The notes beneath the pieces are model-generated. The model was not told where the DNA came from, made no database searches, and saw only the letters and a list, made by a program, of their open reading frames with translations. From assembly GCF_055900595.2 (NCBI RefSeq), contig NZ_CM148325.1: 64,000 nucleotides of DNA; one strand, given 5' to 3'. Position 1 is the stretch's first letter, and each line of letters begins with the position of its first letter. A program made the translations under genes and the position numbers. Shown here piece by piece: positions 27,919 to 44,214 of this stretch.

Positions 27919-28362
27919 ATGGCAGATATCACTCTTATCAGCGGCAGCACCCTCGGCGGTGCCGAATATGTAGCAGAACACCTGGCTGAAAAGCTGGAAG
28001 AGGCGGGTTTTACCACCGAAACGCTGCACGGTCCGCTGTTGGAAGATTTATCTGCCTCTGGGATCTGGCTGGTTATCAGCTCAACCCACGGTGCCGGAGA
28101 TATTCCGGACAACCTTTCTCCTTTCTATGAAGCATTGCAGGAACAGAAGCCCGATCTTTCTGCGGTCCGCTTTGGCGCAATCGGTATTGGTAGTCGTGAA
28201 TATGACACCTTTTGTGGGGCTATCGATAAACTCAAGGCAGAACTCAAAAATTCCGGTGCAAAACAGACAGGCGAAACACTGAAGATCAACATCCTTGATC
28301 ACGAAATTCCGGAAGATCCGGCAGAAGAATGGCTGGGATCGTGGATTAATTTACTCAAATAA
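27919..28362 (+). CDS. mioC: Flavodoxin-like FMN-binding protein MioC (147 aa)
   Basis: Flavodoxin signature (ISGSTLGGAEYVAE...); immediately flanks oriC. Confidence 0.92.
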   Translation: MADITLISGSTLGGAEYVAEHLAEKLEEAGFTTETLHGPLLEDLSASGIWLVISSTHGAGDIPDNLSPFYEALQEQKPDLSAVRFGAIGIGSREYDTFCGAIDKLKAELKNSGAKQTGETLKINILDHEIPEDPAEEWLGSWINLLK

Positions 28363-28384
28363 GTATACAGATCGTGCGATCTAC

Positions 28385-28640
28385 TGTGGATAACTCTGTC
28401 AGGAAGCTTGGATCAACCGGTAGTTATCCAAAGAACAACGGTTGTTCAGTTTTTGAGTTGTGTATAACCCCTCATTCTGATCCCAGCTTATACGGTCCAG
28501 GATCACCGATCATTCACAGTTAATGATCCTTTCCAGGTTGTTGATCTTAAAAGCCGGATCCTTGTTATCCACAGGGAAGTGCGATCCTAATAAGAGATCA
28601 CAATAGAACAGATCTCTAAATAAATAGATCTTCTTTTTAA
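28385..28640. other. Chromosomal replication origin oriC: DnaA boxes R4 to R1 plus three AT-rich 13-mers
   Basis: TGTGGATAA (R4, 28385-28393), TTATCCACA (R1, 28565-28573), 13-mers read on the minus strand as GATCTCTTATTAG, GATCTGTTCTATT and GATCTATTTATTT (28587-28630), and dense GATC sites; located between mioC and mnmG. Confidence 0.95.
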
Positions 28641-28740
28641 TACCCAGGATCCCAGGTCTTTCTCAAGCCGACAAAGTTGAGTAGAATCCACGGCCCGGGC
28701 TTCAATCCATTTTCATACCGCGTTATGCGAGGCAATCACC

Positions 28741-40703: not shown

Positions 40704-42533
40704 ATGTGTGGAATTGTTGGCGCGATCGCGCAACGTGATGTAGCAGAAATCCTTCTTGAAGGTTTACGTCGTCTGGAATACCGCGGATATGACTCTGCCG
40801 GTCTGGCGGTTGTAGATGCAGAAGGTCATATGACCCGTCTGCGTCGCCTCGGTAAAGTCCAGATGCTGGCCCAGGCAGCGGAAGAATATCCTCTGCATGG
40901 CGGCACCGGGATTGCTCACACTCGCTGGGCGACGCACGGCGAACCTTCAGAAGTGAATGCGCATCCGCATGTTTCTGAACACATTGTGGTGGTGCATAAC
41001 GGCATCATCGAAAACCATGAACCGCTGCGTGAAGCGTTAAAAGCACGTGGCTATACCTTCGTTTCTGAAACCGACACCGAAGTGATTGCACACCTGGTGA
41101 ACTGGGAACTGAAACAAGGCGGTACTCTGCGTGAGGCTGTTCTGCGTGCTATTCCGCAACTGCGCGGCGCGTACGGTACGGTAATTATGGACTCCCGTCA
41201 CCCGGATACCCTGCTGGCGGCTCGTTCTGGTAGCCCGCTGGTGATTGGCCTGGGCATGGGCGAAAAATTTATTGCTTCTGACCAGTTGGCGCTGTTGCCA
41301 GTGACCCGTCGCTTTATCTTCCTTGAAGAAGGCGATATTGCGGAAATCACTCGCCGTTCGGTAAACATCTTCGATAAAACTGGCGCGGAAGTGAAACGTC
41401 AGGATATCGAATCCAATCTGCAATATGACGCGGGCGATAAGGGTTTTTACCGCCACTACATGCAGAAAGAGATCTACGAACAGCCGAACGCGATCAAAAA
41501 CACCCTTACCGGGCGCATCAGCCACGGTCAGGTTGATTTGAACGAGCTGGGACCGAACGCCGACGAACTGCTGTCGAAGGTTGAGCATATTCAGATCCTC
41601 GCCTGTGGTACTTCTTACAACTCCGGTATGGTTTCCCGCTACTGGTTTGAAGCGCTGGCAGGTATTCCGTGCGATGTTGAAATCGCCTCTGAATTCCGCT
41701 ATCGCAAATCAGCCGTGCGTCGTAACAGCCTGATGATCACTCTGTCGCAGTCCGGTGAAACCGCGGATACCCTGGCGGGTCTGCGTCTGTCAAAAGAATT
41801 GGGTTACCTTGGATCGCTGGCAATCTGTAACGTTCCTGGCTCTTCGCTGGTACGTGAATCCGATTTGGCGCTGATGACCAATGCGGGTACGGAAATTGGC
41901 GTGGCGTCCACCAAAGCATTCACCACTCAGTTAACCGTGTTGTTGATGCTGGTGGCGAAGCTGTCTCGCCTGAAAGGTCTGGATGCCTCCATTGAGCATG
42001 ATATCGTGCATGGTCTGCAGGCGTTACCGAGCCGTATTGAGCAGATGCTGTCTCAGGACAAACGCATTGAAGCTCTGGCAGAAGATTTCTCTGACAAACA
42101 CCACGCGCTGTTCCTGGGCCGTGGCGATCAGTACCCAATTGCGCTGGAAGGCGCATTGAAGCTGAAAGAGATCTCTTATATTCATGCGGAAGCCTACGCA
42201 GCAGGCGAACTGAAACACGGTCCGCTGGCGCTGATTGACGCGGATATGCCGGTTATCGTCGTCGCACCGAACAACGAACTGCTGGAAAAACTGAAATCCA
42301 ACATTGAAGAAGTTCGTGCGCGTGGTGGTCAACTGTACGTCTTCGCCGATCAGGATGCTGGTTTTGTGAGCAGTGATAACATGCACATCATCGAGATGCC
42401 GCATGTGGAAGAGGTGATTGCACCGATCTTCTACACCGTTCCGCTGCAGCTGCTGGCCTATCACGTTGCGCTGATTAAAGGCACTGACGTTGACCAGCCG
42501 CGTAATCTGGCAAAATCGGTAACGGTTGAGTAA
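40704..42533 (+). CDS. glmS: Glutamine-fructose-6-phosphate aminotransferase (609 aa)
   Basis: N-terminal MCGIVGA nucleophile and tandem SIS domains; ends ...KSVTVE. Confidence 0.96.
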
Positions 42534-42554
42534 TTTTCATCATTGATATAAAAG

Positions 42555-42578
42555 GGCTGCCGACGGGCGGCCTTTTTT
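42555..42578 (+). terminator. glmS terminator hairpin, which is also the canonical Tn7 attachment position (unoccupied here)
   Basis: GGCUGCC-GACG-GGCGGCC stem (one G-U pair) followed by six U, about 22 bp after the glmS stop. No Tn7 ends or tns genes follow. Confidence 0.75.
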
Positions 42579-42838
42579 ATAAAGTGTATCAACGGTTTAT
42601 TATTGATGCACAAATTAATATAAATATATTCTGAATTATTGGTGATGTCCTATTACGCACTTGATTTTTTACTGTTTTAATAATATTTATATAATAAATT
42701 TATATTTAATTTCGCATAATTAATATTATTTTTAGATAAAAATACCCCTTTGGTGTACTATGCCTCTGAATCATAAAATCACTTATTAATTTAAGTTATG
42801 ATTTAGACTGAAGGATATATTATATCAATGGAGTTTGT

Positions 42839-43411
42839 ATGAAACGTAATATTATTGGCGGTGCAATTACGCTGGCATCTTTAATGTTAGCCGGAAATGC
42901 ACTTGCAGAAGATGGCGTTGTTCACTTTGTCGGTGAAATTGTCGATAGCACATGCGAAGTGACTTCCGATACCGCCGATCAAACAGTACCTCTTGGTAAG
43001 GTCAGTAAAAGTGCGTTTTCAGGAGTAGGCAGCCTGGCGTCACCACAGCAATTTAGTATTAAACTGGAAAATTGCCCAGCAACCTATACTCAGGCAGCCG
43101 TCCGTTTCGATGGTACTGAAGCACCTGGCGGAGACGGTGACCTGAAAGTGGGTACACCGCTGACATCAGGTACACCTGGCGATTTTACCGGTACAGGACA
43201 AGCGATTGCGGCAACCGGCGTCGGTATTCGTATTTTTAACCGGGCGGATAATTCTCAGGTTAAACTTTATAACGACTCTGCTTATAGCACAATCGACGCT
43301 GACGGTAAGGCTGAAATGAAGTTTATTGCACGCTATGTTGCTACCAATGCGACCGTAACGGCGGGTACAGCAAACGCTGATTCACAATTCACCGTCGAAT
43401 ATAAGAAATAA
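42839..43411 (+). CDS. lpfA: Fimbrial major subunit, type 1 pilin family (190 aa), lpfA-like
   Basis: Signal peptide, then the pilin N-terminal motif FVGEIVDSTCEV with a conserved Cys pair; first gene of a chaperone-usher operon between glmS and pstS. The lpf name rests on this location plus family resemblance, not on an alignment. Confidence 0.7.
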   Translation: MKRNIIGGAITLASLMLAGNALAEDGVVHFVGEIVDSTCEVTSDTADQTVPLGKVSKSAFSGVGSLASPQQFSIKLENCPATYTQAAVRFDGTEAPGGDGDLKVGTPLTSGTPGDFTGTGQAIAATGVGIRIFNRADNSQVKLYNDSAYSTIDADGKAEMKFIARYVATNATVTAGTANADSQFTVEYKK

Positions 43412-43458
43412 TTAATACAGGGCCTTTTTATTCAGTTGGCTTTGGCCAGGGAGTCGTT

Positions 43459-44190
43459 ATGTCCAGAAAAAGTTGTTTAATTAGGCTCTTTAAAACAACA
43501 ATTTCGTGTAATTTATTGAGGATTATTATTCTAAGCATCTTTTTCCTCCAGCCGACATTGACCTGTGCAGGTGTTGTCATTGGCGGTACACGGGTTGTTT
43601 ATTTGAGTAATAATGCTGATAAATCTATTTCTGTATTTAGTAAGGAAGAAAAAATTCCTTATCTCATCCAGGCATGGGTGGATCCGTTTAATAAAGATGA
43701 TAAAACTAAAGCGCCATTTATTGTTATTCCTCCGGTATCACGGTTAGAACCCGCGCAAGAAAAAATATTACGTATTGTCCACACTAAAGGTTTGTCATTA
43801 CCAGATGATCGAGAGTCTGTCTTCTGGCTAAATATCAAAAATATTCCACCCTCTGCGAGCAGCAAAGAAGCGAACTCGCTGGAAATCGCCGTTAAAACGC
43901 GAATTAAGCTTTTCTGGAGACCGGCATCTATCCGCATGATTCCCGAAGATGCCGCACCAAAGGTGAAGTGGCATCGGGAAGGCCGAAATCTTATTGCTGA
44001 GAACCCTAACCCGATTCATATCAGCGTGATGGATGTCATTGTTGATGGCCATGATGTACCTCTTAACATGATCCGCCCTTTCGAGACGCTCACGTTACCG
44101 TTGCCTGCTAATTCTTCGGGTAGCCAAATGACCTGGCGATTTATTAATGATTACGGTGCGATAAGCGAACCATTAAAGCAAGCGTTGTAA
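43459..44190 (+). CDS. lpfB: Periplasmic pilus chaperone, PapD-like (243 aa)
   Basis: Signal peptide then AGVVIGGTRVVY, typical of chaperone-usher chaperones; operon context. Confidence 0.72.
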   Translation: MSRKSCLIRLFKTTISCNLLRIIILSIFFLQPTLTCAGVVIGGTRVVYLSNNADKSISVFSKEEKIPYLIQAWVDPFNKDDKTKAPFIVIPPVSRLEPAQEKILRIVHTKGLSLPDDRESVFWLNIKNIPPSASSKEANSLEIAVKTRIKLFWRPASIRMIPEDAAPKVKWHREGRNLIAENPNPIHISVMDVIVDGHDVPLNMIRPFETLTLPLPANSSGSQMTWRFINDYGAISEPLKQAL

Positions 44191-44214
44191 GCATTGCATA
44201 AGGATAGGCGAATT

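What the first reader, a model, noticed from the sequence alone, without database searches (positions are those of the whole stretch)
42555..42838. Tn7 attachment site downstream of glmS is empty despite an adjacent insertion
The glmS terminator at 42555-42578 is the canonical Tn7 insertion position. No Tn7 terminal repeats or tns genes follow; instead an AT-rich leader and the fimbrial operon begin about 260 bp later. Foreign DNA has entered this hotspot without a recognisable transposon, which suggests an old insertion whose mobility functions were lost, or a different mechanism.
Basis: partly seen in the sequence, partly recalled or inferred. Interest (0 to 1): 0.3.

Follow-up and report, generated by a model that had tools for sequence, protein, structure and literature searches.

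The report
Vacant Tn7 site beside lpf fimbriae
The Tn7 landing site just after glmS is intact and unoccupied, as in about 98% of E. coli genomes, and the fimbrial genes next to it are the well-known long polar fimbriae (lpfO113/lpf2-type) operon, which shows no sign of having arrived by Tn7.

Summary
glmS ends at 42533, and a strong terminator hairpin follows at 42550-42578. The predicted Tn7 insertion centre is 42556, inside a single GGGCT at 42554-42558. The window holds no Tn7 ends and no tns genes. A 260-bp leader of 22% G+C precedes a four-gene chaperone-usher operon.

The situation is ordinary. The operon is the known lpfO113/lpf2-family cluster, which the literature places between glmS and pstS. 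In 5,426 complete E. coli genomes this interval holds one of three alternatives: a 208-bp K-12-type spacer (3,064), an lpfO113-type operon (1,969) or an O157 lpf2-type operon (355).

The lpf version differs from the K-12 version from the base after the glmS stop codon, not from the Tn7 insertion point, and it carries its own glmS terminator. In 27 lpfO113 genomes Tn7 sits between glmS and lpfA. In strain 1EC213 it is flanked by duplicated GGGCT, so the site works and is independent of lpf.

The glmS-lpf-pstS order recurs in Citrobacter, Pseudocitrobacter and an unnamed enterobacterium. The window's lpfB-lpfD core is 94-99% identical to the P. vendiensis locus, against 82-88% for the flanks. 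This points to exchange by homologous recombination, not transposition.

The parts
40704..42533 (+). glmS (glutamine-fructose-6-phosphate aminotransferase), 609 aa; stop codon TAA at 42531-42533
   Evidence: ORF list. Pfam SIS and GATase domains. Annotated glmS in a 99.9% identical RefSeq record.
42498..42533 (+). TnsD-binding part of attTn7: the last 36 bp of the glmS ORF, equivalent to attTn7 +58 to +23
   Evidence: 34 of 36 bases match K-12. The two differences are third-codon positions (+35 and +50), neither among the positions reported as important for TnsD binding (+30, +31, +33, +37, +42, +43, +45, +48, +51, +52, +54).; PMC2918618.
42554..42558 (.). Predicted Tn7 insertion point: GGGCT, centred on 42556, present once, so the site is vacant
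   Evidence: Position computed. The same GGGCT, also 20 nt after the stop codon, is duplicated on either side of Tn7 in lpfO113 strain 1EC213. It is present once in the unoccupied lpfO113 strain A12.
42550..42578 (+). glmS intrinsic terminator of the lpf-type version: A-tract, GC stem pairing 42554-42561 with 42566-42573, loop GACG, then T-run
   Evidence: Fold of -24.5 kcal/mol, z = -5.25. The GGGCTGCC...GGCGGCC(C) stem recurs with different loops in the O113-type, O157-type and L012 loci.
42579..42838 (+). AT-rich leader and promoter region of the lpf operon (21.9% G+C)
   Evidence: Composition. Promoter-like hexamers such as TTTACT-16-TATAAT at 42668-42695, not more frequent than in shuffles. 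No Rfam match. Only ORFs of 50 aa or less.
42839..43411 (+). lpfA, fimbrial major subunit (190 aa)
   Evidence: Pfam Fimbrial domain. NCBIfam NF011817 at 380 bits against a cut-off of 203. Named lpfA-O113 in RefSeq.
43459..44190 (+). lpfB, periplasmic chaperone (243 aa)
   Evidence: Pfam PapD_N and PapD_C. NCBIfam NF011818 at 502 bits against a cut-off of 317.
44194..46737 (+). lpfC, outer-membrane usher (847-aa ORF; the RefSeq start corresponds to 44215)
   Evidence: Pfam PapC_N, Usher and PapC_C. Named lpfC-O113 in RefSeq.
46747..47820 (+). lpfD, the 357-aa last subunit of the operon (probable tip adhesin); the most divergent gene of the operon
   Evidence: Pfam Fimbrial domain in the C-terminal half. 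Best NCBIfam match is StgD, below its cut-off. 78% aa identity to LpfD-O113.
47827..47853 (.). 11-bp-stem hairpin just after lpfD; probable end of the lpf transcript
   Evidence: Listed. Sequence. A similar hairpin is visible in the O113-type sequence in the alignment.
42534..47957 (+). The whole lpf-type version of the glmS-pstS interval (5,424 bp, 44.3% G+C). It replaces the 208-bp K-12-type spacer.
   Evidence: Boundary alignments and sequences. No homology to the K-12 spacer. Census.
47958..48062 (+). pstS promoter region (Pho boxes CTGTCATAAAACTGTCAT... by sequence), shared by all versions of the interval
   Evidence: Nearly identical in the window, the K-12/B-type and the O113-type (one substitution each in the window and the O113-type sequences). 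The O157 lpf2-type region is similar with a few substitutions. Calling these Pho boxes rests on established knowledge of the pstS promoter.

Best explanation
This is an intact, unoccupied attTn7 site lying inside the lpf-type version of the E. coli glmS-pstS interval.

Shown:
- The last 36 bp of glmS keep every base known to matter for TnsD binding.
- Twenty bases after the stop codon comes GGGCT, in the left arm of the glmS terminator. This is the pentamer that Tn7 duplicates when it enters the lpfO113-type version.
- Here GGGCT is present once, and nothing related to Tn7 is in the window.
- The adjacent genes are the known four-gene chaperone-usher operon lpfABCD of the lpfO113/lpf2 family. 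Their relation to Salmonella stg is indicated only by the StgD match in NCBIfam and by my recollection.

Inferred:
- The operon owes nothing to Tn7. The lpf segment runs from the base after the glmS stop codon to the pstS Pho boxes, carries its own glmS terminator, and is an alternative to the 208-bp K-12 spacer.
- Most likely an lpf/stg-type operon has lived in this interval since before Escherichia, Citrobacter and Pseudocitrobacter separated.
- It has since been kept, lost or swapped between lineages, and even genera, by homologous recombination in the conserved flanks (glmS, pstS) or inside the operon.
- Each incoming version brings a terminator, and glmS itself supplies the TnsD site, so attTn7 is always regenerated.
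For: - attTn7 is intact and vacant (with PMC2918618).
- Positive control: Tn7 (tnsABCDE plus a class 2 integron) lies between glmS and lpfA-O113 in strains 1EC213 and HN68. In 1EC213 it is flanked by GGGCT on both sides. The same Tn7-end/GGGCT/lpf-leader junction is present in 27 complete genomes.
- No Tn7 ends and no Tns homologues in the window or in any of the 79 lpf-related loci from other species.
- No terminal inverted repeats or target duplication at the block ends.
- Identity of the operon; literature PMC2608844, PMC6033998 and PMC12750587.
- Three mutually exclusive versions account for 5,388 of 5,426 genomes.
- The boundaries lie at the stop codon and at the Pho boxes, and the alternatives share no homology.
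- glmS-lpfABCD-pstS is also found in P. vendiensis, C. werkmanii, an unnamed enterobacterium and Escherichia sp. E1V33.
- Window 43690-46890 is 94-99% identical in nucleotides to P. vendiensis, whereas glmU, glmS, pstS and pstC are 82-88% identical.
- Within E. coli this allele is rare: 18 genomes at 97% or more against 1,962 at 80-90%.
Against: - Direction (gain or loss) is not settled. I could not inspect the interval in Escherichia species or other genera that lack lpf, so the K-12-type spacer could be the older state in Escherichia.
- The block's G+C (44.3%) is below that of the flanks (53%), as expected for acquired DNA, although fimbrial operons and their leaders are commonly AT-rich.
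- The outgroup survey kept one genome per species and only loci that hold an lpfC relative, so it cannot show how common the arrangement is in those genera.
- TnsD binding to this exact allele was not tested. The occupied examples are all of the O113-type version.
Confidence: 0.85

Rival explanations
1. An ancient Tn7-like, TnsD-targeted element delivered the lpf ancestor to attTn7 as cargo. Its tns genes and ends have since been deleted or eroded.
For: The block sits directly after glmS, the classic target of Tn7-like elements. It has lower G+C than its flanks. It is absent from 56% of E. coli genomes.
Against: - Divergence from the empty version starts at the stop codon, not 23 bp downstream.
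- There is no 5-bp duplication. No TGT...ACA ends or inverted repeats occur at the block boundaries. The only weak candidate is AT-rich and lies inside the leader, 145 bp from the left boundary.
- Non-coding DNA is only 305 bp on the left and 242 bp on the right, which leaves no room for tns remnants.
- No Tns homologue lies within 8 kb of any of the 79 lpf-related loci in other species.
- The terminator that holds the insertion point belongs to the block and still works as a Tn7 target.
Confidence: 0.04
2. The lpf block is a recent, lineage-specific acquisition in E. coli. It was inserted into an ancestral K-12-type spacer by illegitimate recombination that also deleted about 208 bp, and then spread within the species.
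For: Lower G+C. Patchy distribution, in 43% of genomes. Replacement-type junctions without repeats.
Against: - The same gene order occurs in Citrobacter, Pseudocitrobacter and an unnamed enterobacterium.
- Three allele classes occupy the identical site, and their proteins are only 34-63% identical between the O157 and SE11/O113 types (PMC2608844; 38-63% here for the window against O157). This is far deeper than divergence within E. coli.
- The terminator stem is shared by the window-type, O113-type and O157-type versions and by the unnamed enterobacterium.
Confidence: 0.1
3. The block is an integrase-type genomic island, or a phage or ICE remnant, that uses the 3' end of glmS as its attachment site.
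For: Its position at the 3' end of a conserved gene resembles the attachment sites of such islands.
Against: There is no integrase or recombinase ORF. The four lpf genes fill 42839-47820. No flanking direct repeats were found. No part of the glmS 3' end is duplicated at the far boundary.
Confidence: 0.01

Closest known systems
lpfO113 operon of LEE-negative STEC (Doughty et al. 2002, cited in PMC6033998; called 'lpfB1' there)
   Same: Four genes, lpfABCD, in the same order, between glmS and pstS. The boundaries match, the glmS terminator stem is the same, and GGGCT lies at the same distance from the stop codon. RefSeq names the window-type genes lpfA/B/C-O113.
   Different: The region is only about 83-85% identical in nucleotides. 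Protein identities are LpfA 93%, LpfB 88%, LpfC 91% and LpfD 78%. The window allele is a rare class, found in 18 of 5,426 genomes, and its core is closer to the Pseudocitrobacter vendiensis locus.
lpf2 operon of E. coli O157:H7 (O island 154)
   Same: Same chromosomal site, same kind of chaperone-usher operon, and a related terminator stem after glmS (PMC2608844, PMC6033998).
   Different: It has a longer leader (about 700 bp) and two lpfD-like genes, and in the record inspected its chaperone gene is annotated in two short pieces. Proteins are 38-63% identical to the window's. It occurs in 355 genomes.
Tn7 inserted at attTn7 of E. coli
   Same: The TnsD-binding sequence and the spacing are the same. 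In lpfO113 strains Tn7 lies exactly at the position predicted for the window.
   Different: The window has no Tn7. GGGCT is single, and there are no ends and no tns genes.
K-12/B-type glmS-pstS spacer (the textbook attTn7 context)
   Same: glmS, the TnsD site and the pstS Pho-box region are shared.
   Different: Its 208 bp, including a different terminator (GCCCTGCGTAAGCGGGGC), are replaced by the 5,424-bp lpf segment. The two share no detectable homology.
Salmonella Typhi / avian E. coli stg fimbrial operon
   Same: LpfD's best NCBIfam match is StgD. From memory only, not tested here: NF011817/NF011818 are the StgA/StgB models, and stg is described as lying between glmS and pstS.
   Different: LpfD scores below the StgD cut-off (236 against 493 bits). 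The Salmonella locus was not examined here.

Membership tests
attTn7 (TnsD-recognised Tn7 attachment site) | 36-bp TnsD-binding sequence at the 3' end of glmS, with the bases important for binding (+31, +33, +42, +43, +45, +51, +54; lesser effect +30, +37, +48, +52) | tested here: met
   34 of 36 bases match K-12. The differences lie only at wobble positions +35 and +50. Criteria are from PMC2918618.
attTn7 (TnsD-recognised Tn7 attachment site) | Insertion point about 23 bp beyond the ORF end, in intergenic DNA, uninterrupted when the site is vacant | tested here: met
   GGGCT at 42554-42558 is present once. The homologous GGGCT flanks Tn7 on both sides in strain 1EC213. 27 genomes carry the same Tn7-end/GGGCT/lpf-leader junction.
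attTn7 (TnsD-recognised Tn7 attachment site) | TnsD binds and TnsABC+D transposition occurs into this exact allele | not testable with these tools
   Needs a gel-shift assay or a mini-Tn7 integration experiment.
Tn7 / Tn7-like transposon (occupied site or remnant) | tnsA, tnsB and tnsC (plus tnsD/tnsE) genes | tested here: not met
   tblastn with TnsA-E taken from L007 gives no hit in the window better than E = 1.2, and none in the 79 lpf-related loci. The four lpf genes fill the block.
Tn7 / Tn7-like transposon (occupied site or remnant) | Terminal TGTGGGCGGACA ends with repeated 22-bp TnsB-binding sites | tested here: not met
   Matches to the 12-mer are fewer than expected by chance, and none has 1 mismatch or fewer. 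The 23-mer gives 0 matches. The scan for TGT...ACA ends with a 5-bp duplication found only one pair, with unrelated ends.
Tn7 / Tn7-like transposon (occupied site or remnant) | 5-bp target-site duplication flanking the inserted segment | tested here: not met
   No duplication at 42534/47957. One AT-rich candidate (AATAA at 42679 and 47933) lies away from the boundaries.
lpfO113 / lpf2 (stg-like) chaperone-usher fimbrial operon | Major subunit, PapD-type chaperone, PapC-type usher and a long last subunit, in that order | tested here: met
   Pfam: Fimbrial; PapD_N/PapD_C; PapC_N/Usher/PapC_C; Fimbrial.
lpfO113 / lpf2 (stg-like) chaperone-usher fimbrial operon | Curated family models reached | tested here: inconclusive
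   LpfA (NF011817, 380 against 203 bits) and LpfB (NF011818, 502 against 317 bits) pass. LpfC and LpfD stay below every curated cut-off in this library. RefSeq nevertheless names lpfA/B/C-O113 in the 99.9% identical record and leaves the fourth gene as 'fimbrial protein'.
lpfO113 / lpf2 (stg-like) chaperone-usher fimbrial operon | Chromosomal position between glmS and pstS | tested here: met
   Literature: PMC2608844, PMC6033998, PMC12750587.
lpfO113 / lpf2 (stg-like) chaperone-usher fimbrial operon | Fimbriae are assembled and mediate adhesion | not testable with these tools
   Needs expression and adhesion assays.
Integrase-type genomic island | Integrase gene and flanking direct repeats derived from the attachment site | tested here: not met
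   No such ORF. No flanking repeats.

The most novel reading that the evidence does not exclude
The glmS-pstS interval may behave as a fimbrial cassette that is exchanged across genera. The core of the window's allele (lpfB 3' end, lpfC, lpfD 5' end; 43690-46890) is 94-99% identical to the Pseudocitrobacter vendiensis locus, although the surrounding housekeeping genes are only 82-88% identical. Only 18 of 5,426 E. coli genomes carry this allele. This would mean a fairly recent transfer between genera by homologous recombination inside a syntenic locus, with attTn7 regenerated each time because every version carries its own glmS terminator. An origin of the first lpf/stg ancestor as cargo of a Tn7-like element cannot be strictly excluded, but I put that at about 0.04.
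Probability: 0.6. Interest if true: 0.25.

Novelty: already known. Interest (0 to 1): 0.1.

Why it matters
It matters little beyond getting the annotation right.

- **Practical:** attTn7 in this strain should accept mini-Tn7 constructs at 42554-42558. Such an insertion would fall between glmS and the lpf promoter region, which is worth knowing if lpf expression is of interest.
- **Conceptual:** variable DNA next to glmS is not automatically Tn7-related. Here the variation is an old set of alternative versions of the interval, maintained and shuffled by homologous recombination. The Tn7 target is re-created by each version because its specificity lies in the glmS coding sequence.
- **The one new point:** the similarity of a rare E. 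coli lpf allele to the Pseudocitrobacter vendiensis locus is a small addition to what is known of how fimbrial repertoires diversify.

Tried and rejected
- **Tn7 probe:** It matched real Tn7 at 100%, but its context (next to intI2, distal to tnsA) shows it is the left, integron-proximal end. This does not affect the conclusions.
- **Duplication and inverted repeats:** a systematic scan for a 5-bp duplication with adjacent terminal inverted repeats across both boundary zones gave one AT-rich hit away from the boundaries. The null (a mononucleotide shuffle) is lenient for such AT-rich DNA. I rejected the hit.
- **K-12 spacer remnants:** local alignment of the 208-bp K-12-type spacer against the block, both strands, scored no better than shuffles. 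An apparent TAATCAA...CAAC...ACCGT similarity in the MAFFT alignment is therefore taken as an alignment artefact.
- **Terminator scan:** the consensus scan did not list the glmS hairpin. Direct folding shows it clearly.
- **Rfam:** a scan of 42300-48300 at E up to 1 found no family.
- **Literature:** searches for stg at glmS-pstS were unproductive. Doughty et al. 2002 (PMC133005) is not held. Statements about stg and about that paper's content therefore rest on memory or on citing papers.
- **Not examined:** E. coli 042's 'Tn21 element between lpfA and glmS' (PMC2808357), to see whether it rides on a Tn7-like backbone.

Full report
**What is at the coordinates**

The ORF 40704-42533 is glmS (SIS and glutamine-amidotransferase domains). 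It is preceded by glmU and the atp operon. Four fimbrial genes follow, then pstSCAB-phoU. The region 42300-48300 is 99.9% identical to E. coli strain Z0117EC0005.

Directly after the stop codon (TAA, 42531-42533) the sequence reads TTTTCATCATTGATATAAAAGGGCTGCCGACGGGCGGCCTTTTTTAT. It folds into an A-tract/GC-stem/T-tract hairpin of -24.5 kcal/mol (z = -5.25; 0 of 200 shuffles fold as well). The simple terminator scan missed it, probably because its stem extension pairs the A-tract with the T-run. The next 260 bp (42579-42838) are 21.9% G+C, and the first fimbrial gene starts at 42839.

**Is this the Tn7 insertion position, and is it empty?**

Mitra et al. 2010 (PMC2918618) define the TnsD-binding site as the last 36 bp of the glmS ORF (attTn7 +23 to +58). 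The 5-bp target duplication lies at -2 to +2. I checked the register against the bases they list (+31 C, +42 T, +43 T, +51 T), and +23 is the last base of the stop codon.

- In the window the 36 bp differ from K-12 at two third-codon positions (+35 and +50). Neither is among the positions that affect TnsD binding.
- Position 0 falls on 42556. The would-be duplication is GGGCT at 42554-42558, in the left arm of the terminator stem. It is present once.
- The Tn7 tip 12-mer has fewer near-matches than chance (37 against 49 expected, none with 1 mismatch or fewer).
- TnsA-E proteins taken from a real Tn7 give no tblastn hit in the 64 kb better than E = 1.2.

The site is intact and vacant.

**Positive control**

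A Tn7 end probe finds 118 of 5,426 complete E. coli genomes, with 99 chromosomal places. Vacancy is therefore the rule, in about 98% of genomes.

In strains 1EC213 and HN68 the order is glmS - tnsABCDE ... dfrA1-sat2 - intI2 - lpfA-O113. The 1EC213 junctions read ...GAGTAA-(20 nt)-GGGCT|TGTGGGCGGACAATAAAG... and ...TTGTCCGCCCACA|GGGCTGCCGACCGGTGGCCCTTTTTT. Tn7 thus enters the lpf-type terminator exactly where predicted and duplicates GGGCT.

The same Tn7-end/GGGCT/lpf-leader junction occurs in 27 genomes. The E. coli 042 genome paper also reports a resistance element between glmS and lpfA (PMC2808357). Tn7 and the lpf block are independent tenants of the interval.

**What the adjacent 'insertion' is**

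The four ORFs are a fimbrial major subunit, a PapD-type chaperone, a PapC-type usher and a 357-aa last subunit. RefSeq names them lpfA/B/C-O113 plus 'fimbrial protein'. In NCBIfam, LpfA and LpfB pass the NF011817 and NF011818 equivalog cut-offs, and LpfD's best match is StgD, below its cut-off.

The literature places this operon between glmS and pstS:
- E. coli SE11, E24377A, SMS-3-5 and O157 Sakai (PMC2608844).
- 'lpfB1' and O island 154 (PMC6033998).
- PMC12750587.

**Census of the interval**

In 5,426 complete E. coli genomes the glmS-pstS interval holds one of three alternatives. Together they account for 5,388 genomes (99.3%).

| Version | Genomes |
|---|---|
| 208-bp K-12-type spacer | 3,064 |
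| lpfO113-type operon, including the window's allele | 1,969 |
| O157 lpf2-type operon | 355 |

**Boundaries and mechanism**

- Against the empty version, the window diverges one base after the stop codon (42535). It re-converges at TGTCATAAAACTGTCAT, the pstS Pho-box region, at 47958.
- The 5,424-bp lpf segment and the 208-bp spacer replace each other and share no detectable homology.
- No terminal inverted repeats or target duplication mark the ends.
- Only 305 bp and 242 bp of non-coding DNA flank the four genes, and they hold no ORF longer than 69 aa.
- The terminator stem GGGCTGCC/GGCGGCC(C), with varying loops, is shared by the window-type, O113-type and O157-type versions and by an unnamed enterobacterium.

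The Tn7 insertion point therefore lies in lpf-specific DNA. A Tn7-type arrival, which would leave the original 23 bp after glmS and a 5-bp duplication, is not what the sequence shows.

**Other genera**

A scan of one genome per species with the window's LpfC found five loci with lpf next to glmS, pstS or both:

| Locus | Organism | Arrangement seen |
|---|---|---|
| L011 | Pseudocitrobacter vendiensis | glmU-glmS-lpfABCD-pstS |
| L012 | Unnamed enterobacterium MGYG-HGUT-00110 | glmU-glmS-lpfABCD-pstS |
| L009 | Citrobacter werkmanii | glmS 3' end-lpf-pstS |
| L014 | Escherichia sp. E1V33 | glmS 3' end-lpf-pstS (lpf2-like) |
| L010 | Citrobacter sp. | lpf-pstS; the glmS side is not in the stored DNA |

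None of the 79 loci holds a Tns homologue. Three deeply diverged allele classes at one site (34-63% protein identity between the O157 and SE11 types, PMC2608844), together with synteny across genera, favour an old resident locus over repeated insertions.

**Evidence for the actual mode of movement**

A sliding-window comparison shows window 43690-46890 (lpfB 3' end to lpfD 5' end) at 94-99% nucleotide identity to P. vendiensis. By contrast, glmU, glmS, pstS and pstC are 82-88% identical. The same stretch is 72-90% identical to the classical lpfO113 allele.

Within E. coli the identities are bimodal: 18 genomes at 97% or more and 1,962 at 80-90%. This mosaic is the signature of homologous recombination within a syntenic locus, here across genera.

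**What remains open**

The direction of change (lpf ancestral and lost, or K-12-type ancestral) is not proven. The block's lower G+C (44.3% against 53%) is compatible with either history. That the Salmonella stg operon sits at the same site is my recollection and was not tested here.

**Verdict**

The implied link to the Tn7 hotspot is not supported. The feature is already known and ordinary, so interest is low.

Noticed in passing
window 53049-59925: A very AT-rich segment (29-33% G+C against about 53% in its neighbours) lies between phoU and yieH. It holds three large ORFs (839, 395 and 815 aa). Two have weak pentapeptide-repeat matches below Pfam's cut-offs (one marginally above for the 395-aa ORF). 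RefSeq calls one of them 'type III effector protein' in the near-identical strain. In K-12-like strains this position holds bglGFBH-yieLK-cbrBC. This is a far more striking piece of foreign DNA than the lpf block.
   Followed up: partly
window 43690-46890; L011 about 7500-10700: The core of the lpf operon is 94-99% identical in nucleotides to the Pseudocitrobacter vendiensis type-strain locus, while the flanking glmU, glmS, pstS and pstC are 82-88% identical. Only 18 of 5,426 E. coli genomes carry this allele. This suggests recombination between genera.
   Followed up: yes
window 47883-47904: CATGACATAAAAGATGACATGG lies between lpfD and pstS. Its reverse complement carries two TGTCAT half-sites, like an inverted Pho box, although the spacing is 12 nt here rather than 11. 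By my reading of the alignment, the O113-type sequence has the same motif with 11-nt spacing. It may be an extra PhoB site upstream of pstS, or chance.
   Followed up: no
window 42598-42630 and 42693-42725: A 33-nt imperfect inverted repeat (79% complementary, arms 62 nt apart) lies inside the AT-rich lpf leader. In DNA this AT-rich it may be chance, or it may be a regulatory feature.
   Followed up: no
window 41713-42113 (glmS 3' half): This part of glmS is only 90-92% identical to a typical E. coli glmS, against 96% for neighbouring stretches. A recombination tract that includes the lpf allele may extend into glmS.
   Followed up: no
other genomes: NZ_CM165895.1 (H3), NZ_CP169309.1 (H122), NZ_AP042561.1 (H83): Several E. 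coli strains carry IS elements (IS1, IS2, ISEc8) inside the lpf operon at this locus. The operon is therefore being inactivated by insertion in some lineages.
   Followed up: no
window about 28360-28740 and 7555-12566 (by mapping to NZ_CP098223.1): By mapping to the near-identical record, the window spans the mioC-mnmG gap, where oriC lies in E. coli (the oriC assignment is from general knowledge), and an rRNA operon with tRNA-Glu, tRNA-Asp and tRNA-Trp, which I take to be rrnC. The finding therefore lies about 14 kb from the replication origin.
   Followed up: no
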